From assembly GCF_030013205.1 (NCBI RefSeq), contig NZ_CP122648.1: 64,000 nucleotides of DNA; one strand, 5' to 3'. This DNA comes from Escherichia coli (GTDB lineage Bacteria > Pseudomonadota > Gammaproteobacteria > Enterobacterales > Enterobacteriaceae). Below are positions 2,336 to 53,261 of this stretch, in pieces. Below the pieces are notes generated by a model. The model was not told the DNA's origin and searched no databases. It worked only from the letters and a program-made list of their open reading frames with translations. Numbering within the stretch: position 1 is the stretch's first letter; each line of letters begins with the position of its first letter. A program made the position numbers and the translations under genes.

Positions 2336-2591
2336 ATAGCAACCACGCCTCAGGGCGTGGTTTCTTATTTTTACCCATCACTAAAATTCGCCCATTCAAT
2401 AAAACCCGCCAAAAATTATCGATTCATCAATAAATACACCTCCACACCCTACCCTTTTTCATTAATCAGCAATCACCATTACGTTTTTTATTCCCCCCCT
2501 GCCAAATCGCTTGCGCACAGTGCTGCTTTGCGGCATTTTTTTAAACAAGCAAACACAACAAACAACAAATACCAGGTTAACGGAGAAGGTT

Positions 2592-4256
2592 ATGTGTTCA
2601 ATTTTTGGCGTATTCGATATCAAAACAGACGCAGTTGAGCTGCGTAAGAAAGCACTCGAACTGTCACGCCTGATGCGTCATCGTGGCCCGGACTGGTCCG
2701 GTATTTATGCCAGCGATAACGCCATTCTCGCCCACGAACGTCTGTCAATTGTTGACGTTAACGCGGGGGCGCAACCTCTCTACAACCAACAAAAAACTCA
2801 TGTGCTGGCGGTAAACGGTGAAATCTACAACCACCAGGCACTGCGCGCCGAATATGGCGATCGTTATCAGTTCCAGACCGGATCTGACTGCGAAGTGATC
2901 CTCGCGCTGTATCAGGAAAAAGGGCCGGAATTTCTCGACGACTTGCAGGGCATGTTTGCCTTTGCCCTGTACGACAGCGAAAAAGATGCATATCTGATTG
3001 GTCGCGACCATCTGGGGATCATCCCACTGTATATGGGCTATGACGAACACGGTCAGCTGTATGTGGCCTCAGAAATGAAAGCCCTGGTGCCAGTTTGCCG
3101 CACGATTAAAGAGTTCCCGGCGGGGAGCTATTTGTGGAGCCAGGACGGCGAAATCCGTTCTTATTATCACCGCGACTGGTTCGACTTTGATGCAGTGAAA
3201 GATAACGTGACCGACAAAAACGAGCTGCGTCAGGCACTGGAAGATTCCGTTAAAAGCCATCTGATGTCTGATGTGCCTTACGGTGTGCTGCTTTCTGGTG
3301 GTCTGGATTCCTCAATTATTTCCGCGATCACCAAGAAATACGCCGCCCGTCGCGTGGAAGATCAGGAACGTTCTGAAGCCTGGTGGCCGCAGTTACACTC
3401 CTTTGCTGTAGGTCTGCCGGGTTCACCGGATCTGAAAGCAGCCCAGGAAGTGGCAAACCATCTGGGCACTGTGCATCACGAAATTCACTTCACTGTACAG
3501 GAAGGTCTGGACGCCATCCGCGACGTGATTTACCACATCGAAACCTATGATGTGACCACTATTCGCGCTTCAACACCGATGTATTTAATGTCGCGTAAGA
3601 TCAAGGCGATGGGCATTAAAATGGTGCTGTCCGGTGAAGGTTCTGATGAAGTGTTTGGCGGTTATCTTTACTTCCACAAAGCACCGAATGCCAAAGAACT
3701 GCATGAAGAGACGGTGCGTAAACTGCTGGCCCTGCATATGTATGACTGCGCGCGTGCCAACAAAGCGATGTCAGCCTGGGGCGTGGAAGCACGCGTTCCG
3801 TTCCTCGACAAAAAATTCCTTGATGTGGCGATGCGTATTAACCCACAGGATAAAATGTGCGGTAACGGCAAAATGGAAAAACACATCCTGCGTGAATGTT
3901 TTGAAGCGTATCTGCCTGCAAGCGTGGCCTGGCGGCAGAAAGAGCAGTTCTCCGATGGCGTCGGTTACAGTTGGATCGATACCCTGAAAGAAGTGGCGGC
4001 GCAGCAGGTTTCTGATCAACAGCTGGAAACTGCCCACTTCCGCTTCCCGTACAACACGCCGACGTCCAAAGAAGCGTATCTGTACCGGGAGATCTTTGAA
4101 GAACTGTTCCCGCTTCCGAGCGCCGCAGAGTGCGTACCGGGCGGTCCTTCCGTCGCGTGTTCTTCCGCTAAAGCGATCGAATGGGATGAAGCGTTCAAAA
4201 AAATGGACGATCCATCTGGTCGTGCGGTTGGTGTTCACCAGTCGGCATATAAATAA
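2592..4256 (+). CDS. asnB: asparagine synthetase B (glutamine-hydrolysing)
   Basis: 554 aa beginning MCSIFGV (N-terminal Cys of class II amidotransferases), SGGLDSS PP-loop; ATG at 2592 preceded by GGAGAAGG; the longer track ORF from 2511 is an upstream extension. Confidence 0.95.
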   Translation: MCSIFGVFDIKTDAVELRKKALELSRLMRHRGPDWSGIYASDNAILAHERLSIVDVNAGAQPLYNQQKTHVLAVNGEIYNHQALRAEYGDRYQFQTGSDCEVILALYQEKGPEFLDDLQGMFAFALYDSEKDAYLIGRDHLGIIPLYMGYDEHGQLYVASEMKALVPVCRTIKEFPAGSYLWSQDGEIRSYYHRDWFDFDAVKDNVTDKNELRQALEDSVKSHLMSDVPYGVLLSGGLDSSIISAITKKYAARRVEDQERSEAWWPQLHSFAVGLPGSPDLKAAQEVANHLGTVHHEIHFTVQEGLDAIRDVIYHIETYDVTTIRASTPMYLMSRKIKAMGIKMVLSGEGSDEVFGGYLYFHKAPNAKELHEETVRKLLALHMYDCARANKAMSAWGVEARVPFLDKKFLDVAMRINPQDKMCGNGKMEKHILRECFEAYLPASVAWRQKEQFSDGVGYSWIDTLKEVAAQQVSDQQLETAHFRFPYNTPTSKEAYLYREIFEELFPLPSAAECVPGGPSVACSSAKAIEWDEAFKKMDDPSGRAVGVHQSAYK

Positions 4257-4636: not shown

Positions 4637-4713
4637 GGCTACGTAGCTCAGTTGGTTAGAGCACATCACTCATAATGATGGGGTCACAGGTTCGAATCCC
4701 GTCGTAGCCACCA
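4637..4713 (+). tRNA. metT: tRNA-Met (anticodon CAU, elongator)
   Basis: 77-nt sequence GGCTACGTAGCTCAGTTGGTTAGAGCACATCACTCATAATGATGGGGTCACAGGTTCGAATCCCGTCGTAGCCACCA with encoded CCA. Confidence 0.95.
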
Positions 4714-4721
4714 TCTTTTTT

Positions 4722-4806
4722 GCGGGAGTGGCGAAATTGGTAGACGCACCAGATTTAGGTTCTGGCGCCGCAAGGTGTGCGAGTTCAAGTCTCGCCTCCC
4801 GCACCA
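4722..4806 (+). tRNA. leuW: tRNA-Leu (anticodon UAG)
   Basis: 85-nt type II tRNA with long variable arm; anticodon loop TTTAGGT; encoded CCA. Confidence 0.95.
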
Positions 4807-4829
4807 TTCACCAGAAAGCGTTGTACGGA

Positions 4830-4904
4830 TGGGGTATCGCCAAGCGGTAAGGCACCGGTTTTTGATACCGGCATTCCCTGGTTCGAATCCAGGTACCCCA
4901 GCCA
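4830..4904 (+). tRNA. glnU: tRNA-Gln (anticodon UUG)
   Basis: 75-nt TGGGGTATCGCCAAGCGGTAAGGCACCGGTTTTTGATACCGG..CCAGCCA; anticodon TTG. Confidence 0.95.
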
Positions 4905-4938
4905 TATTCTTCGAGTAAGCGGTTCACCGCCCGGTTAT

Positions 4939-5013
4939 TGGGGTATCGCCAAGCGGTAAGGCACCGGTTTTTGATACCGGCATTCCCTGGTTCGAATCCA
5001 GGTACCCCAGCCA
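4939..5013 (+). tRNA. glnW: tRNA-Gln (anticodon UUG), identical second copy
   Basis: 75-nt sequence identical to the copy at 4830-4904. Confidence 0.95.
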
Positions 5014-5028
5014 TCGAAGAAACAATCT

Positions 5029-5105
5029 GGCTACGTAGCTCAGTTGGTTAGAGCACATCACTCATAATGATGGGGTCACAGGTTCGAATCCCGTCGTAGC
5101 CACCA
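5029..5105 (+). tRNA. metU: tRNA-Met (anticodon CAU), second copy
   Basis: 77-nt sequence identical to 4637-4713. Confidence 0.95.
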
Positions 5106-5153
5106 AATTCTGAATGTGTCGAATATGTTCGGCAAATTCAAAAACCAATTTGT

Positions 5154-5228
5154 TGGGGTATCGCCAAGCGGTAAGGCACCGGATTCTGATTCCGGCATTC
5201 CGAGGTTCGAATCCTCGTACCCCAGCCA
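5154..5228 (+). tRNA. glnV: tRNA-Gln (anticodon CUG)
   Basis: 75-nt tRNA with anticodon loop GGATTCTGATTCCGG (CTG); encoded CCA. Confidence 0.95.
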
Positions 5229-10776: not shown

Positions 10777-12315
10777 ATGGCTTTTGCCTCATTAATTGAA
10801 CGCCAGCGCATTCGCCTGCTGCTGGCGTTATTATTCGGTGCCTGCGGAACGCTGGCCTTCTCTCCTTACGACGTCTGGCCTGCGGCGATTATTTCGCTGA
10901 TGGGGCTTCAGGCGCTGACCTTTAACCGCCGTCCACTCCAGTCTGCCGCTATTGGCTTTTGCTGGGGATTTGGCCTCTTTGGCAGCGGTATTAACTGGGT
11001 CTATGTCAGCATCGCGACTTTTGGTGGAATGCCTGGCCCGGTTAACATCTTCCTGGTGGTGCTGCTGGCGGCGTATTTGTCGCTGTATACCGGACTGTTT
11101 GCTGGCGTGCTGTCGCGTCTGTGGCCGAAAACCACCTGGCTGCGCGTGGCGATTGCCGCCCCTGCTCTCTGGCAAGTGACCGAGTTTCTGCGCGGTTGGG
11201 TGCTGACCGGCTTCCCGTGGTTACAGTTCGGCTATAGCCAGATTGATGGCCCGTTAAAAGGGCTGGCACCGATAATGGGCGTGGAAGCCATTAACTTCCT
11301 GCTGATGATGGTTAGTGGCCTGCTGGCACTGGCGTTGGTCAAACGCAACTGGCGTCCGCTGGTAGTGGCCGTCGTGCTGTTTGCCCTTCCCTTCCCGCTG
11401 CGTTACATCCAGTGGTTTACCCCGCAACCGGAGAAAACCATTCAGGTTTCGATGGTTCAGGGCGATATTCCGCAATCACTGAAATGGGACGAAGGCCAGC
11501 TTCTTAATACGCTGAAGATTTACTACAACGCAACGGCACCGCTGATGGGCAAATCATCGTTGATTATCTGGCCGGAGTCGGCGATAACCGATCTGGAAAT
11601 TAATCAGCAACCGTTCCTCAAAGCACTGGACGGTGAGTTGCGCGATAAAGGGAGCTCGCTGGTAACCGGGATTGTTGACGCGCGTCTCAATAAGCAGAAC
11701 CGCTACGATACTTACAACACCATCATCACGCTGGGGAAAGGTGCGCCGTACAGCTACGAATCAGCCGATCGCTATAACAAAAACCATCTGGTGCCGTTTG
11801 GCGAGTTTGTCCCGCTGGAGTCGATTCTGCGTCCGTTAGCGCCGTTCTTTGATCTGCCGATGTCGTCGTTCAGCCGTGGGCCATATATCCAGCCACCGCT
11901 GTCGGTAAACGGTATTGAGCTTACTGCGGCTATTTGCTACGAGATCATTCTCGGCGAGCAAGTGCGTGATAACTTCCGCCCGGATACCGACTATCTGCTG
12001 ACTATCTCCAACGATGCGTGGTTTGGTAAGTCTATTGGTCCATGGCAGCACTTCCAGATGGCGCGAATGCGTGCGTTGGAGCTGGCGCGCCCATTGCTGC
12101 GTAGCACCAACAACGGTATTACGGCGGTGATTGGCCCGCAGGGTGAGATTCAGGCGATGATCCCGCAATTCACCCGCGAGGTGTTAACCACTAACGTGAC
12201 GCCGACTACCGGACTTACACCGTACGCACGTACCGGCAACTGGCCTCTGTGGGTGCTGACGGCACTGTTTGGTTTTGCTGCTGTGCTGATGAGCCTGCGT
12301 CAACGACGTAAATAA
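10777..12315 (+). CDS. lnt: apolipoprotein N-acyltransferase
   Basis: 512 aa; N-terminal polytopic membrane region followed by a C-N hydrolase domain. Confidence 0.95.
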
Positions 12316-12327
12316 TCCCTTCTTATC

Positions 12328-12390
12328 GTGCCGGAATACATCCCGTATTTCGGCACGCTCACCGGATGCGGCATCAGTGCGTTATCCGGA
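12328..12390. repeat. hairpin plus REP-like palindrome downstream of lnt
   Basis: GTGCCGGAATACATCCCGTATTTCGGCAC inverted repeat followed by ACCGGATGCGGCATCAGTGCGTTATCCGG. Confidence 0.4.
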
Positions 12391-12644
12391 TAACAAAATC
12401 CCCCTATCCAACTTTGGCACATCTATTGCTTTGTTATACAAGGCAAAGCTTGAACCAGCATCAGTACAACCCGGTTGCACCACAGCAATCCACGGGTAGC
12501 ACCAAAAGAGTGCATTTTAAGAATTTTGCTTCGGAATGGTGCGGCGCAACTCGCAAAAACAAACAATAAAACAGCAATATCTTTACATTTAGCCAAACTA
12601 AATGTTACCTAACAGGCACAACACTGCACAATAAAGTTGCAGAC

Positions 12645-12670
12645 GATAACAACACAAACACTCACAACGG
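12645..12670 (+). promoter_or_regulatory. C/A-rich element in the gltI 5' UTR, candidate GcvB sRNA target site
   Basis: GATAACAACACAAACACTCACAACGG lies about 40 nt upstream of the gltI start codon; gltI is a known GcvB target through a C/A-rich element. Confidence 0.35.
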
Positions 12671-12711
12671 GTATCCATGCGTTCTTAACGCAGAAGATAA
12701 AGGAGTTGGAT

Positions 12712-13620
12712 ATGCAATTACGTAAACCTGCCACAGCAATCCTGGCCCTGGCGCTTTCCGCAGGACTGGCACAGGCAGATGACGCCGCCCCGGCAGCAGG
12801 CAGTACGCTGGACAAAATCGCCAAAAACGGTGTGATTGTCGTCGGTCACCGTGAATCTTCAGTACCTTTCTCTTATTACGACAATCAGCAAAAAGTGGTG
12901 GGTTACTCGCAGGATTACTCCAACGCCATTGTTGAAGCAGTGAAAAAGAAACTCAACAAACCGGACTTGCAGGTGAAACTGATTCCGATCACCTCACAAA
13001 ACCGTATTCCTCTGCTGCAAAACGGCACTTTCGATTTTGAATGTGGTTCCACCACCAATAACGTCGAACGCCAGAAACAGGCGGCTTTCTCTGACACTAT
13101 TTTCGTGGTCGGCACGCGCCTGTTGACCAAAAAGGGGGGCGATATCAAAGATTTTGCCGACCTGAAAGGCAAAGCCGTAGTCGTCACTTCCGGCACTACT
13201 TCTGAAGTTTTGCTCAACAAACTGAATGAAGAGCAAAAAATGAATATGCGCATCATCAGCGCCAAAGATCACGGTGACTCTTTCCGCACCCTGGAAAGCG
13301 GTCGTGCCGTTGCCTTTATGATGGATGATGCTCTGCTGGCTGGTGAACGTGCGAAAGCGAAGAAACCAGACAACTGGGAAATCGTCGGCAAGCCGCAGTC
13401 TCAGGAAGCCTACGGTTGTATGTTGCGTAAAGACGATCCGCAGTTCAAAAAGCTGATGGATGACACCATCGCGCAGGTGCAGACCTCCGGTGAAGCGGAA
13501 AAATGGTTTGATAAATGGTTCAAAAATCCAATTCCGCCGAAAAACCTGAACATGAATTTCGAACTGTCAGACGAAATGAAAGCACTGTTCAAAGAACCGA
13601 ATGACAAGGCACTGAACTAA
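12712..13620 (+). CDS. gltI: glutamate/aspartate ABC transporter periplasmic binding protein
   Basis: 302 aa from the ATG at 12712 (RBS AAGGAG), signal peptide MQLRKPATAILALALSAGLAQA; the track ORF starts upstream at 12637. Confidence 0.95.
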   Translation: MQLRKPATAILALALSAGLAQADDAAPAAGSTLDKIAKNGVIVVGHRESSVPFSYYDNQQKVVGYSQDYSNAIVEAVKKKLNKPDLQVKLIPITSQNRIPLLQNGTFDFECGSTTNNVERQKQAAFSDTIFVVGTRLLTKKGGDIKDFADLKGKAVVVTSGTTSEVLLNKLNEEQKMNMRIISAKDHGDSFRTLESGRAVAFMMDDALLAGERAKAKKPDNWEIVGKPQSQEAYGCMLRKDDPQFKKLMDDTIAQVQTSGEAEKWFDKWFKNPIPPKNLNMNFELSDEMKALFKEPNDKALN

Positions 13621-13777
13621 TTACAAGAACCAGGGGCGGAAATTCCAGCCCTCTCGATTGTTACGTAGCACGGACAGACTATACGCCTGATGGTCGTTCC
13701 CCATCGGGCCTGAAAACCGCAATACGCTGGGTAACAATCTTCGAGGGTAGCAGTTAACGCTGCTACCCTCTTTTTTC
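13621..13777 (+). ncRNA. sroC: SroC sRNA locus (gltI 3' region / gltI-gltJ spacer)
   Basis: Intergenic stretch ending in a strong terminator (GAGGGTAGCAG-TTAAC-GCTGCTACCCTC followed by TTTTTT, 13743-13776); SroC is known to derive from this position; 5' end not determinable from sequence. Confidence 0.5.
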
Positions 13778-13789
13778 TGGAGTAGATTT

Positions 13790-14530
13790 ATGTCTATAGA
13801 CTGGAACTGGGGTATTTTTTTACAACAAGCCCCGTTCGGCAACACCACCTATCTTGGTTGGATCTGGAGTGGTTTTCAGGTGACGATCGCTTTGTCGATC
13901 TGCGCCTGGATTATCGCTTTCCTCGTCGGTTCATTTTTCGGCATTTTACGTACCGTTCCAAACCGTTTTCTCTCCGGTCTGGGTACGTTGTATGTCGAAC
14001 TGTTCCGCAACGTGCCGTTGATTGTGCAATTCTTTACCTGGTATCTGGTGATCCCGGAGCTGTTGCCGGAGAAAATCGGCATGTGGTTTAAGGCCGAGCT
14101 GGATCCCAATATTCAGTTTTTCCTTTCATCCATGCTTTGCCTGGGGCTGTTTACCGCCGCCCGTGTTTGCGAACAGGTACGCGCCGCGATTCAGTCGTTG
14201 CCGCGTGGGCAAAAGAATGCCGCGCTGGCAATGGGGCTGACGCTACCGCAGGCTTATCGCTACGTACTGCTGCCTAATGCTTATCGCGTTATCGTCCCGC
14301 CGATGACTTCCGAGATGATGAACCTGGTGAAAAACTCCGCCATCGCCTCGACTATCGGTCTGGTGGATATGGCAGCGCAGGCCGGTAAATTGCTTGATTA
14401 CTCAGCCCACGCCTGGGAGTCGTTTACCGCCATTACGCTTGCGTATGTGTTGATTAACGCTTTTATCATGCTGGTGATGACGCTGGTTGAACGTAAAGTT
14501 CGCCTGCCTGGCAACATGGGGGGCAAATAA
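13790..14530 (+). CDS. gltJ: glutamate/aspartate ABC transporter permease
   Basis: 246-aa polytopic membrane protein; operon context. Confidence 0.95.
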
Positions 14531-34982: not shown

Positions 34983-35011
34983 AAAAAAAACCCGCTGATT
35001 AAGCGGGTTTT
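34983..35011. terminator. bidirectional terminator between crcB and cspE
   Basis: A8 run, CCCGCT-GATTA-AGCGGG hairpin, then TTTTG. Confidence 0.7.
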
Positions 35012-35030
35012 GAATTCTTGCTGACGTATC

Positions 35031-35240
35031 TTACAGAGCGATTACGTTTGCAGCAGAAGGGCCTTTGGCACCGTTAGTGATTTCGAACTCTACGCGCTGA
35101 CCTTCAGCAAGAGTTTTAAAACCATTAGTCTGGATTGCAGAGAAGTGTACAAACACGTCTTTGCTGCCGTCTTCCGGAGTAATGAAACCGAATCCTTTGG
35201 ACTCATTAAACCACTTAACGTTACCTTTAATCTTAGACAT
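35031..35240 (-). CDS. cspE: cold-shock-domain protein CspE
   Basis: 69 aa [20 protein letters not shown]..; the track ORF extends 28 codons upstream. Confidence 0.95.
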
Positions 35241-35414
35241 CAAAATTACCTTTACATGAAAAATAGACACAAATGCTGTGTCGGTTACCAGTACACCAAT
35301 TGTGGTACGCTTTGTCCAGTGCAACTTTACTAAAAAGTGATAAAAGTCGCGTTATTTTTGATGTTAATTATTTTACCCATTGATTTTAAAGAGTTTACTA
35401 AAATTTCATTTGTC

Positions 35415-48335: not shown

Positions 48336-48481
48336 TCCTCTGATTTACAAAACACGCTAATTCGTCTTCCATAAACCATGACGATTAAGATTTATACATA
48401 ATGCGCTACATTGAGGAATTCCCTGAATGTGACGCAAATCACTTCAAAGAGTGAGCAACAGTCAGTATCATCATGTGAGTT

Positions 48482-48517
48482 AAACCCTCGCCGCCTGACG
48501 GTGAGGGTTTTCTTTTG
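48482..48517 (+). terminator. rho-independent terminator of rna
   Basis: AACCCTCGCCG-CCTGA-CGGTGAGGGTT followed by TTCTTTTG. Confidence 0.7.
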
Positions 48518-48564
48518 GGTATGTTTATCTGCGACACTCGCAGTACCGACGACATGGAGTAAAA

Positions 48565-49829: not shown

Positions 49830-50535
49830 CTCCGGCATAGCCGGAGGTTTTTCAAATGCGCCTATAAGGCTCTCTTACCAGCCGCGCCCTAACAGGCGCA
49901 CACGATCTGACATTTGCATCCAACTTCGTTACTTACGGCCCGTAAACGGGCTGCCCGGATAGGGAATCGATAACTGCTCTCCCATTTTATCCTCTTCAAG
50001 CTGGTGCTTTATGTAATCCTGTATCTTCGCCGTGTTCTTACCCACTGTATCGACGTAGTACCCTCTGCACCAGAACTCCCTGTTCCTGTATTTGAATTTC
50101 AAATCACCAAACTGCTCGTAAAGCATCAGACTGCTTTTCCCTTTCAGATATCCCATAAACCCGGATACGCTCATTTTGGGCGGGATCTCCACAAGCATAT
50201 GGATATGATCTGCACAGCATTCAGCTTCCAGAATCCGTACGCTTTTCCACTCACACAGCTTTCTCAAAATACTGCCTATTGCTCTACGCTTCTCTCTGTA
50301 GAACACCTGTCTTCGGTATTTTGGCGCAAAAACTATGTGATATTTACAGTTCCATCGGGTGTGCGCTAAGCTCTTTTCGTTCCCCATTGGGACCCCCTTT
50401 TGATTTCTTGTTTGACACTTGCAGTTGCCAGACCGCAAGGTGTTTTAACAAATCAAAAGGGGTTTTAATAACTGGCTCAAAGCTGAAAGCTTTCCGGAAC
50501 CCCCAGCCTAGCTGGGGGTTTTCTGTGCACAAAAA
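49830..50535 (-). mobile_element. IS200-family insertion sequence (boundaries approximate, +/- about 30 bp)
   Basis: Contains a 152-aa Y1 (HUH) transposase gene; upstream of it the characteristic perfect hairpin CCCCCAGC-CTA-GCTGGGGG (50500-50518) and a second stem-loop (CCCCTTTTGATTTG..CAAATCAAAAGGGG) occluding the RBS; size about 0.7 kb as expected for IS200. Confidence 0.8.
49929..50387 (-). CDS. tnpA: IS200 transposase TnpA (Y1/HUH)
   Basis: MGNEKSLAHTRWNCKYHIVFAPKYRR..ADHIHMLVEIPPK.. with HUH motif HIH; near-identical to the IS200 TnpA I recall from Salmonella; the track ORF starts 17 codons upstream. Confidence 0.9.
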   Translation of the reverse strand: MGNEKSLAHTRWNCKYHIVFAPKYRRQVFYREKRRAIGSILRKLCEWKSVRILEAECCADHIHMLVEIPPKMSVSGFMGYLKGKSSLMLYEQFGDLKFKYRNREFWCRGYYVDTVGKNTAKIQDYIKHQLEEDKMGEQLSIPYPGSPFTGRK

Positions 50536-52890: not shown

Positions 52891-53261
52891 CTATACTTCC
52901 TCCGTGTTTTCGATGAGATGTAAGGTAACCAATTTTTGCCGATTCGGCTAATGCGTTTCCATTATCAAATCGATAAGTTTTACCTTACAACCTTCGTAAG
53001 ACAACTTTGTGAACTTTGCACCGCCAGCGGCGATAAAAAGTAAAATGGCCCCCTTTCCAGGTGACCGTGTAATCTGAACTACCCTTTGGTATCTTCAGCG
53101 CCTGCCTGCAGGCTGAGGTGTTGCCCTTACAAATGCAACAACGACATGGATTACAACACCCTCATAAACAAAGGGCAATCACCTGATCTAAGCTCTTACC
53201 TATGGCAGTGATAGGTTATGCCTTTTACCCGACTTTTGCACTGACTGAAAAGGACAAATTA

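What the first reader, a model, noticed from the sequence alone, without database searches (positions are those of the whole stretch)
12611..13789. glt locus carries both ends of the GcvB-SroC regulatory loop
Seen in sequence: a C/A-rich tract (..AACAACACAAACACTCACAACGG..) lies just upstream of the gltI RBS, and a structured spacer with a strong terminator separates gltI from gltJ. Established knowledge: the gltI mRNA is repressed by the sRNA GcvB through a C/A-rich element, and the stable SroC sRNA is processed from the gltI-gltJ region and acts as a sponge that destabilises GcvB. Nothing novel, but it is a regulatory layer that CDS-only annotation would miss.
Basis: partly seen in the sequence, partly recalled or inferred. 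Interest (0 to 1): 0.25.

Follow-up and report, generated by a model that had tools for sequence, protein, structure and literature searches.

The report
Known GcvB–SroC loop at gltI
This stretch of an E. coli chromosome is the glutamate/aspartate transporter gene gltI, which carries the binding site for the small RNA GcvB in front of it and the small RNA SroC, which destroys GcvB, behind it; the circuit is real here but already well described, so the finding is ordinary.

Summary
The observation and the interpretation both hold, and nothing here is new.

- **Organism and genes.** The window is E. coli. gltI is 12712..13620 and gltJ starts at 13790.
- **SroC.** Rfam's sroC model (RF00369) matches 13616-13778 (+) over its full length at 174.8 bits (cut-off 45). 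All 163 bases equal the annotated K-12 sroC. It ends in a 12-bp terminator hairpin and a U-run just before the gltJ ribosome-binding site.
- **GcvB contacts in SroC.** Both published contacts are present, 14 nt apart: GGACAGAC (13672-13679) pairs with GcvB 156-163, and UCGUUCC (13694-13700) pairs with GcvB 13-19.
- **C/A-rich tract.** It lies at 12648-12670, which is -64 to -42 from the AUG and 29 nt upstream of the Shine-Dalgarno. It sits unpaired between two conserved hairpins. It pairs with GcvB region R1 at -40.1 kcal/mol, the best of 31,980 windows in the 64 kb, and no shuffle of 300 reached this value.
- **Conservation.** Both elements are conserved next to gltI in at least 14 genera of Enterobacteriaceae, with compensatory base changes in the SroC stems.
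The tract acts as a distal translation enhancer, not as an RBS-adjacent site. SroC starts inside gltI. The terminator must be leaky. gcvB itself lies outside the window.

The parts
12415..12430 (+). Distal sigma-54-type promoter motif TGGCACatctaTTGCT (-24/-12 elements), about 297 nt upstream of the gltI ATG. It is the nitrogen-limitation input to the operon and hence to SroC.
   Evidence: The motif TGG[CT]A[CT]-N5-TTGC[AT] was found at -286 to -332 in 40 of 40 enterobacterial gltI loci, with a variable N5. [quoted passage not shown] The exact transcription start was not determined here.
12476..12548 (+). Conserved NtrC-like half-sites and palindromes: TGCACCA at 12476, AGCACCAAAAGAGTGCA at 12499-12515, GGTGCGGCGCAC at 12537-12548. 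They lie between the two promoters.
   Evidence: These are conserved blocks in a 20-genome alignment of the lnt-gltI spacer. They resemble the NtrC consensus TGCACC(A/T)4TGGTGCA quoted in PMC4987338. Assignment to NtrC is inference.
12582..12611 (+). Putative proximal sigma-70 promoter: -35 TTTACA (12582-12587), 18-nt spacer, extended -10 TGtTACCTA (12603-12611). In K-12, IS5 is inserted at CTAA 12609-12612, within this -10.
   Evidence: The block TTTACATTaAGCCAaACTAAATGtTAAC is nearly invariant across genera. The K-12 IS5D junction was mapped. The consensus scan did not call it, because it lacks T at -10 position 6, so the assignment is inference. The literature says a sigma-70 promoter exists (PMC9731577).
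12624..12642 (+). Leader hairpin 1 (CUGCA...UGCAG), on the 5' side of the GcvB site.
   Evidence: It appears in the MFE and centroid fold. The three pairs that RNAalifold placed in this hairpin (the U-A, G-C and C-G pairs of the stem) are standard pairs in 44-45 of 45 loci.
12648..12670 (+). C/A-rich element: the GcvB R1 target site and translational enhancer of gltI. The full predicted duplex spans 12635-12670.
   Evidence: Sequence read. The duplex with GcvB nt 62-94 is -40.1 kcal/mol, or -18.6 after opening costs. It ranks 1 of 31,980 windows, and 0 of 300 shuffles reached it. It is unpaired in the centroid and consensus folds. A homologous tract is present in all but one of the 45 aligned enterobacterial loci, the exception being Intestinirhabdus L043. 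The Salmonella homologue is experimentally defined, as summarised in PMC3879156 and PMC11347164.
12679..12691 (+). Leader hairpin 2 (GCGUU-CUU-AACGC), between the GcvB site and the Shine-Dalgarno.
   Evidence: Five consensus pairs, three of them with compensatory changes (for example C-G to U-A in 6 loci and G-C to A-U in 4).
12700..12714 (+). gltI Shine-Dalgarno AAGGAG (12700-12705) and ATG (12712-12714).
   Evidence: Sequence read. The RefSeq CDS of a strain identical over window 12400-14000 maps to 12712..13620.
12712..13620 (+). gltI, the periplasmic glutamate/aspartate-binding protein (302 aa). It is the first gene of gltIJKL and the parental mRNA of SroC.
   Evidence: Annotation of an identical sequence; translation.
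13616..13778 (+). SroC sRNA (163 nt). Its 5' end lies 5 nt inside the gltI ORF and is the RNase E processing site. Its 3' end is at the terminator.
   Evidence: Rfam RF00369 at 174.8 bits, full length. It is 163/163 identical to K-12 sroC b4763, which has the same ends. Structure on 47 distinct sequences: 91% of cells paired against 40-54% in slid controls, and 15 pairs with compensatory changes. RNase E cleavage 'exactly where SroC is processed' in E. coli (PMC11347164).
13672..13679 (+). SroC nt 57-64, GGACAGAC: pairs with GcvB nt 156-163 GUCUGUCC (R3 in SL4). SroC C60 corresponds to the published Salmonella C63, which pairs with GcvB G160.
   Evidence: Exact 8-nt complementarity. Matches the site description and compensatory mutants in PMC4474525 and the R3 mutations G156C, G160C and C162G in PMC9299463.
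13694..13700 (+). SroC nt 79-85, UCGUUCC, in the SL2 loop: pairs with GcvB nt 13-19 GGAACGA (SL1). SroC C84 corresponds to the published Salmonella C87, which pairs with GcvB G14.
   Evidence: Exact 7-nt complementarity, 14 nt from the other site, as described in PMC4474525. The loop GGTCGTTCCCC is invariant in 48 of 48 aligned sequences, and this is independent of the pattern used to fetch them.
13743..13776 (+). Rho-independent terminator: 12-bp stem 13743-13770 with loop UUAA, then U6 at 13771-13776. It makes the SroC 3' end and the short gltI-sroC transcript. It must be leaky for gltJKL to be expressed.
   Evidence: Terminator scan; -21.3 kcal/mol. Nine of 12 stem pairs never vary across genera. 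Described as leaky in PMC4474525, and two transcript sizes are reported in PMC11347164.
13780..13792 (+). gltJ ribosome-binding site GGAG (13780-13783) and ATG (13790-13792), starting 4 nt after the U-tract.
   Evidence: Sequence read; annotation.

Best explanation
This is the native E. coli gltI-sroC unit, and it holds both cis-encoded ends of the published GcvB/SroC circuit.

Step 1 (inferred from conserved motifs and the literature). The operon is transcribed from a proximal sigma-70-type promoter and a distal, NtrC-dependent sigma-54 promoter.

Step 2 (pairing shown in silico here; regulation shown in Salmonella and supported by E. coli interactome data). The gltI leader displays a single-stranded C/A-rich element between two small hairpins, 42-64 nt upstream of the AUG. 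This element enhances translation. The G/U-rich R1 region of the Hfq-dependent sRNA GcvB pairs with it, lowers 30S binding and so represses GltI synthesis, and favours RNase E decay of the mRNA.

Step 3 (ends and structure shown here; the processing enzyme taken from the literature). Transcription often stops at a leaky intrinsic terminator in the gltI-gltJ spacer. RNase E cuts 5 nt before the end of the gltI ORF and releases the stable 163-nt SroC.

Step 4 (complementarity shown here; function taken from compensatory-mutation experiments in Salmonella, with the E. coli pair reported functional). SroC uses two short sites 14 nt apart to pair with GcvB SL1 (nt 13-19) and R3/SL4 (nt 156-163). 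This triggers RNase E degradation of GcvB.

Net effect. Expression of glt mRNA lowers GcvB. That de-represses gltI itself and the rest of the GcvB regulon of amino-acid transporters and enzymes. GcvB in turn promotes production of its own sponge. Because this strain lacks the K-12 IS5 insertion, SroC output is expected to respond to nitrogen limitation, as reported for O157, O111 and Salmonella.
For: Identity and SroC:
- Rfam sroC at 174.8 bits, full length.
- 163/163 identity to K-12 sroC with identical ends.
- The leader is identical to K-12 from 12609 to the ATG.

GcvB pairing with the tract:
- GcvB R1 duplex of -40.1 kcal/mol, net -18.6.
- Best of 31,980 windows; 0 of 300 shuffles reached it.
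- The tract is unpaired between conserved hairpins.

SroC pairing with GcvB:
- The two contacts are present with the published spacing, and they land on the published GcvB residues G14, G156 and G160.

Conservation:
- 57 of 97 pattern matches lie directly after a gltI homologue in at least 14 enterobacterial genera.
- The SroC structure is supported by covariation.
- The SL2 loop is invariant.
- The C/A tract is conserved in all but one of the 45 aligned gltI leaders.

The partner gene:
- gcvB is present in 5425 of 5426 complete E. coli genomes, at 99% identity or more in 5389.

Literature: PMC4474525, PMC3879156, PMC9299463, PMC11347164, PMC9731577, PMC9438474.
Against: - Nothing was measured in this strain.
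- gcvB is not in the window (no Rfam GcvB hit), so its presence and sequence are inferred from its near-universality in E. coli.
- Short complementarities between SroC and GcvB are not statistically compelling on their own: 7-mer matches p about 0.04 and 8-mer matches p about 0.11 against mononucleotide shuffles of SroC.
- Runner-up R1 duplexes elsewhere in the window reach -37.7 kcal/mol, so hybridisation energy alone is not specific.
- In E. coli K-12, compensatory-mutation tests of GcvB pairing at the gltI 5' UTR were reported as inconclusive (PMC11347164). PMC9299463 lists gltI and sroC as 'conserved' rather than 'verified' in E. coli.
- The transcription start sites were not determined. 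The proximal promoter did not pass the simple sigma-70 scan.
Confidence: 0.94

Rival explanations
1. The C/A-rich tract is only a cis-acting translation enhancer (ACA/CA repeats that help 30S recruitment), and its complementarity to GcvB is a by-product of composition. GcvB would not meaningfully control gltI in E. coli.
For: CA-rich sequences enhance translation independently of GcvB (PMC3879156). C/A-rich 23-mers are not rare in the window (70 positions on the + strand). Shuffles of the leader already average -26.9 kcal/mol with R1. E. coli compensatory-mutation tests at this site were inconclusive (PMC11347164).
Against: The native order of bases pairs better than every one of 300 composition-preserving shuffles, and better than every other window in 64 kb. 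GcvB-gltI chimeras or enrichment are seen in RIL-seq, CLASH and MAPS in E. coli (PMC9299463 Table 1). gltI mRNA loss through RNase E occurs only in gcvB+ cells (PMC11347164). Direct footprinting and regulation are shown in Salmonella for the homologous tract (summarised). The two roles are also not exclusive.
Confidence: 0.03
2. The gltI-gltJ spacer is simply an intra-operon attenuator that sets the excess of binding protein over membrane components. The 163-nt RNA would then be an inert decay remnant with no trans-acting role.
For: A strong-looking terminator sits between the first gene and the rest of an ABC-transporter operon, which is a common way to over-produce the periplasmic binding protein (discussed in PMC4474525). 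[quoted passage not shown]
Against: An attenuator does not need 120 nt of conserved, covarying structure upstream of the terminator, nor an invariant 11-nt loop that matches GcvB SL1. About 70% of GcvB chimeras in stationary-phase E. coli are with SroC (PMC9299463). Compensatory mutants prove base-pairing-dependent GcvB decay (PMC4474525). The attenuator role is real, but it comes in addition to the sponge role.
Confidence: 0.02
3. The main business of SroC in this strain is something other than GcvB: sponging MgrR (which affects eptB and polymyxin sensitivity) or repressing fliE/flhBAE (motility). The GcvB loop would then be a minor side activity.
For: These further targets are reported (PMC9438474).
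Against: The most conserved single-stranded segments of SroC are exactly the two GcvB contacts. A search for SroC-MgrR complementarity found only an 8-mer involving the MgrR terminator and nothing at the conserved SroC loops. GcvB-SroC is by far the dominant SroC interaction in RIL-seq. This reading supplements the main one and does not replace it.
Confidence: 0.05

Closest known systems
SroC sRNA (Rfam RF00369; E. coli K-12 b4763; Salmonella SroC of Miyakoshi, Chao & Vogel 2015, PMC4474525)
   Same: The sequence matches K-12 at 163 of 163 bases. It has the same position (last 5 nt of gltI through the gltI-gltJ terminator), the same three-hairpin architecture and the same two GcvB contacts 14 nt apart.
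   Different: Nothing differs in SroC itself. Upstream, this strain lacks the IS5 (insH3) that K-12 carries 104 nt before the gltI ATG. It therefore keeps the native promoters. The published consequence is nitrogen-limitation induction of SroC in IS5-free strains but only marginal induction in K-12 (PMC9731577). Numbering is offset by 3 nt from Salmonella SroC.
GcvB R1 / C/A-rich target sites; the gltI translational enhancer of Salmonella (Sharma et al. 2007, as summarised in PMC3879156 and PMC11347164)
   Same: A C/A-rich, unstructured element well upstream of the Shine-Dalgarno (here ending at -42; reported as 45 nt upstream of the AUG in Salmonella). It is complementary to the G/U-rich R1 of GcvB.
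   Different: The E. coli/Escherichia tract is 7 nt longer (extra CAAACAC) than the tract in Salmonella, Enterobacter and some Citrobacter. This gives a longer predicted duplex. Direct verification at this site in E. coli is weaker than in Salmonella.
Other sRNA sponges and traps made from mRNAs or precursors, and 3'UTR-derived sRNAs (chbBC spacer trapping ChiX; GlnZ from the glnA 3'UTR; SdhX; OppZ)
   Same: A regulatory RNA is released from, or embedded in, an operon transcript. It shares the operon's terminator, is matured by RNase E and acts through Hfq (PMC9438474; PMC4474525).
   Different: SroC comes from an internal, leaky terminator between the first and second genes rather than from the operon's end. 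Its chief target is another sRNA, and that sRNA itself represses the parental mRNA, which closes a loop. Unlike the chbBC-ChiX case, decay of the sRNA is carried out by RNase E rather than PNPase.

Membership tests
SroC (Rfam RF00369) | Covariance-model score at or above the curated gathering score, over the full model | tested here: met
   174.8 bits against a gathering score of 45; E = 7.4e-37; model positions 1-163 of 163; window 13616-13778 (+).
SroC (Rfam RF00369) | Lies on the sense strand at the 3' end of gltI / in the gltI-gltJ spacer of a gltIJKL operon | tested here: met
   gltI is 12712..13620 and gltJ starts at 13790, followed by gltK and gltL. SroC overlaps the last 5 nt of gltI. 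In 57 other enterobacterial genomes the SroC core also follows a gltI homologue.
SroC (Rfam RF00369) | 3' end formed by a Rho-independent terminator shared with the short gltI mRNA | tested here: met
   A 12-bp stem with 7 GC pairs plus U6 at 13743-13776; -21.3 kcal/mol. Actual termination efficiency was not measured.
SroC (Rfam RF00369) | Conserved secondary structure (SL1, long SL2, terminator) supported by covariation | tested here: met
   MFE -66.3 kcal/mol, z = -6.5. 91% of cells paired against 40-54% in slid controls. 15 pairs with changes on both sides. Covariation score 0.202 against 0.04-0.06. The sample was fetched with an exact SroC core pattern, so it is biased towards conserved copies.
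SroC (Rfam RF00369) | Two GcvB-binding sites of 7-8 nt, 14 nt apart, complementary to GcvB SL1 and R3/SL4 | tested here: met
   SroC 57-64 pairs with GcvB 156-163, and SroC 79-85 pairs with GcvB 13-19; the gap between them is 14 nt. This agrees with PMC4474525. The K-12 GcvB sequence was used.
SroC (Rfam RF00369) | Processed species (5' monophosphate, RNase E- and Hfq-dependent maturation) with no promoter of its own | not testable with these tools
   No sigma-70-like site was found anywhere in 12300-13900, which is consistent with this feature. Processing itself is known only from experiments (PMC4474525; PMC11347164).
SroC (Rfam RF00369) | Destabilises GcvB in vivo (sponge activity) | not testable with these tools
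   Shown in Salmonella and reported functional for the E. coli pair (PMC4474525). The sequence here is identical to K-12.
GcvB R1 target mRNAs (C/A-rich site class) | C/A-rich, single-stranded element in the 5' region of an amino-acid transport or metabolism mRNA | tested here: met
   12648-12670 is 87% C+A. It is unpaired in the centroid fold and in the 45-sequence consensus fold, and is flanked by two hairpins.
GcvB R1 target mRNAs (C/A-rich site class) | Extended complementarity to GcvB R1 beyond what composition gives | tested here: met
   -40.1 kcal/mol with GcvB nt 62-94, net -18.6 after opening energies. Rank 1 of 31,980 windows. 0 of 300 dinucleotide shuffles reached it, z = -4.5.
GcvB R1 target mRNAs (C/A-rich site class) | Site conserved in orthologous leaders | tested here: met
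   ATAACAAC...TCACAAYGGG is present at the same place in all but one of the 45 aligned leaders. The exception is Intestinirhabdus alba L043. In 34 of the 43 other genomes tested the best R1 duplex fell on the homologous tract or overlapped it.
GcvB R1 target mRNAs (C/A-rich site class) | GcvB- and Hfq-dependent repression in vivo | not testable with these tools
   Verified in Salmonella. In E. coli it is listed as 'conserved', with RIL-seq, CLASH and MAPS support (PMC9299463), and gltI mRNA decay is GcvB-dependent (PMC11347164). Compensatory mutants there were inconclusive.
GcvB-SroC loop as a whole | A gcvB gene in the same genome | tested here: inconclusive
   It is not in this 64-kb window (no GcvB hit). 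gcvB was found in 5425 of 5426 complete E. coli genomes, at 99% identity or more in 5389, so its presence here is a strong inference only.

The most novel reading that the evidence does not exclude
The SroC terminator may be a regulated switch rather than a passive leaky terminator. Across at least 14 genera, 9 of its 12 stem pairs and the adjacent 14 nt (AUCUUCGAGGGUAG, 13737-13750) never vary, whereas 6 of the 9 pairs of the SL2 apical stem in the same sequences carry compensatory changes. Such sequence-level constraint on a terminator stem could mean that a cis-acting alternative pairing, or a trans-acting factor, sets the ratio of termination to read-through. One candidate pairing is the CCCUC at 13649-13653 competing with the terminator's 3' arm for GAGGG at 13743-13747. 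Termination releases SroC and makes gltI only; read-through gives gltJKL. Miyakoshi et al. raised this possibility in 2015 and left it open. Both partners are invariant, so covariation cannot test it here.
Probability: 0.1. Interest if true: 0.4.

Novelty: already known. Interest (0 to 1): 0.1.

Why it matters
As a discovery it matters little, because the circuit was published in 2007-2015 and extended in 2021-2024.

As annotation it has some value:
- The RefSeq record of a strain whose locus is identical over window 12400-14000 carries no feature for SroC or for the GcvB site. A CDS-only view therefore hides the element that sets GcvB levels, and GcvB controls a regulon of more than 50 amino-acid transport and metabolism genes.
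- This strain has the IS5-free wild-type promoter region. Results on SroC induction obtained in K-12 should not be transferred to it. The nitrogen-limitation response reported for O157, O111 and Salmonella is the better expectation.

Tried and rejected
- **Full-length duplex folding.** RNAduplex on full-length GcvB against the leader or SroC gave meaningless 180-nt 'duplexes' of about -79 kcal/mol. I replaced it with windowed duplexes plus opening energies.
- **Frame error.** My first tblastn used a gltI translation one base out of frame, because I had placed the ATG at 12713. I corrected the ATG to 12712 and repeated the search. The coordinates in my first notebook entry are off by one.
- **Chance matches in the genome scan.** The genome-contig scan with a 15-base SroC core returned 40 chance matches in unrelated phyla. 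I kept only the 57 loci adjacent to a gltI homologue.
- **SL1 in the consensus fold.** RNAalifold did not recover SL1 on the MAFFT alignment. Projecting the E. coli MFE structure showed SL1 is 88% paired.
- **A second sigma-54 promoter.** I looked for one downstream of the NtrC-like sites. The only candidate, AGGCAC-N4-CTGCA at 12614-12628, has the wrong spacing and is not conserved, so I rejected it.
- **MgrR and the invariant terminator.** I tested whether MgrR pairing explains the invariant terminator region of SroC. Only an 8-mer against MgrR's own terminator turned up, so this is not supported.
- **Small ORFs.** The 7-codon ORF AUGGUCGUUCCCCAUCGGGCCUGA inside SroC and the 75-aa antisense ORF at 13621..13848 were dismissed. 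The first has no Shine-Dalgarno and its start and stop are not conserved. The second is a purely mechanical ORF across a structured RNA.
- **Primary source.** The Sharma 2007 paper could not be read. Its content is cited through later papers.
Full report
**What the window is.** Megablast of 12400-14000 finds the region in 5423 of 5426 complete E. coli genomes. It is 100% identical in a set of swine ETEC/O139 strains, where it is annotated gltI-gltJ. The window's + strand corresponds to the K-12 minus strand. The gene order is nagC-nagD-asnB-tRNA cluster-ubiF-miaB-ybeZ-ybeY-corC-lnt-gltIJKL-rihA. gltI is 12712..13620 (ATG at 12712, Shine-Dalgarno AAGGAG at 12700-12705). gltJ starts at 13790. 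An early note of mine placed the ATG one base too far; this was corrected.

**Checking the observation: the 3' end.**
- Rfam's sroC model matches 13616-13778 (+) at 174.8 bits against a gathering score of 45, E = 7.4e-37, covering model positions 1-163.
- K-12 annotates sroC (b4763) with exactly these ends, overlapping the last 5 nt of gltI. The window is identical to it at all 163 positions.
- The RNA folds into a short SL1, a long SL2 and a terminator. The MFE is -66.3 kcal/mol, z = -6.5 against dinucleotide shuffles.
- The terminator is a perfect 12-bp stem (13743-13770, -21.3 kcal/mol) followed by U6. The gltJ ribosome-binding site starts 4 nt after the U-run.
- So the 'structured spacer with a strong terminator' is real. 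Two qualifications apply. The sRNA begins inside the gltI ORF, not in the spacer. And because gltJKL lie downstream with no promoter-like site in between, the terminator has to be leaky. The literature says the same (PMC4474525; two transcript sizes in PMC11347164).

**Checking the observation: the 5' end.**
- The quoted tract is at 12648-12670, which is -64 to -42 from the AUG. It ends 29 nt before the Shine-Dalgarno.
- I took GcvB from K-12 (L002:397-602) and found an almost continuous duplex between GcvB nt 62-94 (the G/U-rich R1) and 12635-12670. The hybridisation energy is -40.1 kcal/mol. After subtracting opening energies of 13.7 (GcvB) and 7.8 (mRNA) it is -18.6 kcal/mol.
- Scanning every 42-nt window of the 64 kb on both strands, this site ranks first of 31,980 (mean -17.9, sd 4.4). 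The runners-up reach -37.7. Those I located (about 11087 to 11135 on the minus strand, and 44561 on the plus strand) lie antisense to lnt and inside the citX coding region respectively; the others were not mapped.
- The leader is itself C/A-rich, so I also shuffled it while preserving dinucleotides. The result was -26.9 +/- 2.9, and none of 300 shuffles reached -40.1.
- C/A-richness by itself is not unusual. The ordered complementarity is what stands out.

**Anatomy of the leader.** Single-sequence folding and a consensus fold of 45 enterobacterial leaders agree on the following order:
- a small hairpin at 12624-12642;
- an unpaired C/A-rich stretch;
- a second hairpin at 12679-12691, in which three of five pairs show compensatory changes;
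- the Shine-Dalgarno.

The GcvB site is therefore displayed single-stranded, well outside the ribosome footprint.

**The SroC-GcvB contacts.**
- Exact complementarities are SroC 57-64 GGACAGAC with GcvB 156-163 GUCUGUCC, and SroC 79-85 UCGUUCC with GcvB 13-19 GGAACGA. They are 14 nt apart in SroC.
- This reproduces the published picture: two sites of 7-8 nt, 14 nt apart in SroC and far apart in GcvB; T1 protections at GcvB G14, G18 and G156; and compensatory pairs C63-G160 and C87-G14 in Salmonella numbering, which is offset by 3 nt.
- It also fits the E. coli R3 mutations G156C, G160C and C162G.
- Taken alone, such short matches are only weakly significant (p about 0.04-0.1 against shuffles). 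Their weight comes from sequence identity with a tested RNA and from conservation.

**Related sequences.**
- A scan of one genome per species with the SroC core AGCACGGACNNACTATA gave 97 matches. Of these, 57 lie immediately after a gltI homologue (88-99% amino-acid identity). The genera include Escherichia, Salmonella, Citrobacter, Enterobacter, Klebsiella/Raoultella, Kluyvera, Kosakonia, Phytobacter, Siccibacter, Lelliottia, Pluralibacter, Huaxiibacter, Superficieibacter and Intestinirhabdus.
- On 47 distinct SroC sequences the E. coli structure is 91% paired, against 40-54% when partners are slid. Fifteen pairs show compensatory changes, and the covariation score is 0.202 against 0.04-0.06. 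RNAalifold independently recovers SL2 and the terminator.
- The SL2 loop GGUCGUUCCCC was not part of the search pattern, yet it is invariant in all 48 sequences.
- Upstream, the tract ATAACAAC...TCACAAYGGG is present at the same position in all but one of the 45 aligned leaders. In 34 of the 43 other genomes tested, the best R1 duplex fell on the homologous tract or overlapped it.
- Salmonella, Enterobacter and some Citrobacter have a tract 7 nt shorter than that of Escherichia.
- Intestinirhabdus alba keeps the SroC core but lacks the C/A tract. It is a natural case with only one end of the loop.

**The missing third component.** gcvB is not in the window. It is present in 5425 of 5426 complete E. 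coli genomes, at 99% identity or more to K-12 in 5389. Using the K-12 sequence is therefore a safe inference, but it remains an inference.

**How it works.** GcvB represses GltI synthesis at the leader. The same transcript, after termination in the spacer and RNase E cleavage at 13615/13616, releases SroC. SroC pairs with GcvB and triggers its RNase E-dependent decay, which de-represses gltI and the rest of the regulon (PMC4474525). In E. coli about 70% of GcvB chimeras in stationary phase are with SroC (PMC9299463). The major RNase E site maps exactly to the SroC 5' end, and GcvB itself promotes SroC production (PMC11347164). The circuit is thus also a negative feedback on GcvB. SroC has further reported targets: MgrR, fliE and flhBAE (PMC9438474). 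What is shown here is sequence, structure, complementarity and conservation. Processing, Hfq dependence and regulation are taken from the literature.

- K-12 carries IS5D/insH3 inserted at the CTAA at 12609-12612, 104 nt before the ATG. The window does not, nor do 5070 of 5426 genomes, which are uninterrupted across the site.
- In the intact spacer I find a sigma-54 motif, TGGCAC-N5-TTGCT, at 12415-12430. It is conserved in 40 of 40 genomes with a variable spacer.
- NtrC-like palindromes lie at 12476-12548, and a nearly invariant block at 12582-12611 looks like TTTACA-N18-TGnTAnCnA. The IS5 of K-12 lands in the -10 of that block.
- All of this is already in the literature. gltIJKL has sigma-70 and sigma-54 promoters. 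[quoted passage not shown] NtrC control is covered.
- For this strain it means the loop's input should include nitrogen status.

**Comparison and verdict.** Every sequence-testable defining feature of SroC and of an R1-type GcvB target is met (see the membership table). The in vivo features cannot be tested here. The finding is a correct recognition of a published circuit, so its novelty is 'already known'.

The only loose end with some novelty is the striking invariance of the terminator stem and its 5' flank across genera, in contrast with the freely covarying SL2. This fits the authors' unanswered suggestion of regulated termination. I could not test it, and I give it a low probability.

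Noticed in passing
window 2541-2575 (+), upstream of asnB (2593-4256): A second C/A-rich leader tract (AAACAAGCAAACACAACAAACAACAAATACCAGG) lies 18-52 nt before the asnB ATG. It was among the better GcvB R1 duplexes in the window scan (-29.2 kcal/mol with 30-nt windows). asnB is listed as a verified R1 target of GcvB in E. coli (PMC9299463 Table 1). The window therefore holds two GcvB targets, not one.
   Followed up: partly
window 12415-12430, 12476-12548, 12582-12612: A sigma-54 promoter motif is conserved in 40 of 40 enterobacterial gltI upstream regions. Oddly, the conserved NtrC-like palindromes (for example AGCACCAAAAGAGTGCA at 12499-12515) lie downstream of it and upstream of the proximal sigma-70-like block. 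The K-12 IS5 insertion site (CTAA 12609-12612) falls in the -10 of that block. The window lacks IS5, as do 5070 of 5426 E. coli genomes. If the coordinates of the NtrC ChIP-seq peak in PMC4066584 are in the older K-12 numbering, as I recall, the peak maps to about 12420-12500.
   Followed up: partly
window 13737-13770: The SroC terminator stem and the 14 nt before it (ATCTTCGAGGGTAG) are invariant across at least 14 genera; 9 of 12 stem pairs never vary. The apical stem of SL2, by contrast, shows compensatory changes in 6 of 9 pairs in the same sequences. This is unusual for a plain intrinsic terminator. MgrR pairing does not explain it.
   Followed up: partly
L029 (Citrobacter braakii), L054 (Kosakonia sp.), L091 and L098 (Phytobacter), L043 (Intestinirhabdus alba); L017 and L052 (Siccibacter): Five genomes carry an insertion of roughly 130 nt between the gltI stop codon and SroC SL1. 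This would separate the usual RNase E site from the sRNA body. The two Siccibacter genomes diverge after SL2 and lack the shared terminator. Intestinirhabdus also lacks the C/A tract in its leader.
   Followed up: no
window 4637-5228 (+): The tRNA cluster has six genes: Met-Leu-Gln(ttg)-Gln(ttg)-Met-Gln(ctg). The RefSeq strain that is 100% identical across gltI has seven (Met-Leu-Gln-Gln-Met-Gln-Gln), and everything upstream is shifted by 113 nt. The window therefore comes from a different strain with one tRNA-Gln repeat fewer, or from an assembly in which the tandem repeat collapsed.
   Followed up: partly
window 50397-50520 (-), 48411-48519 (+), 34983-35341 (-), 53035-53128 (-): There are four other Rfam hits above their gathering scores. 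STnc490 scores 146 bits and lies next to an IS200 tnpA that starts at 49930. The rnk leader scores 125 bits and lies upstream of rnk. A cspA-type thermoregulator scores 119 bits and spans cspE and its leader. STnc70 scores 44 bits. None of these, nor sroC, is annotated in the RefSeq record of the matching strain, which lists only CDS and tRNA features.
   Followed up: no
window 12342-12395 (+): Just after lnt there is a 12-bp inverted repeat, GTGCCGGAATAC...GTATTTCGGCAC. It is followed by a REP-like palindromic unit, GCCGGATGCGGCATCAGTGCGTTATCCGGAT. REP-like units occupy the same spot in several other genera.
   Followed up: no
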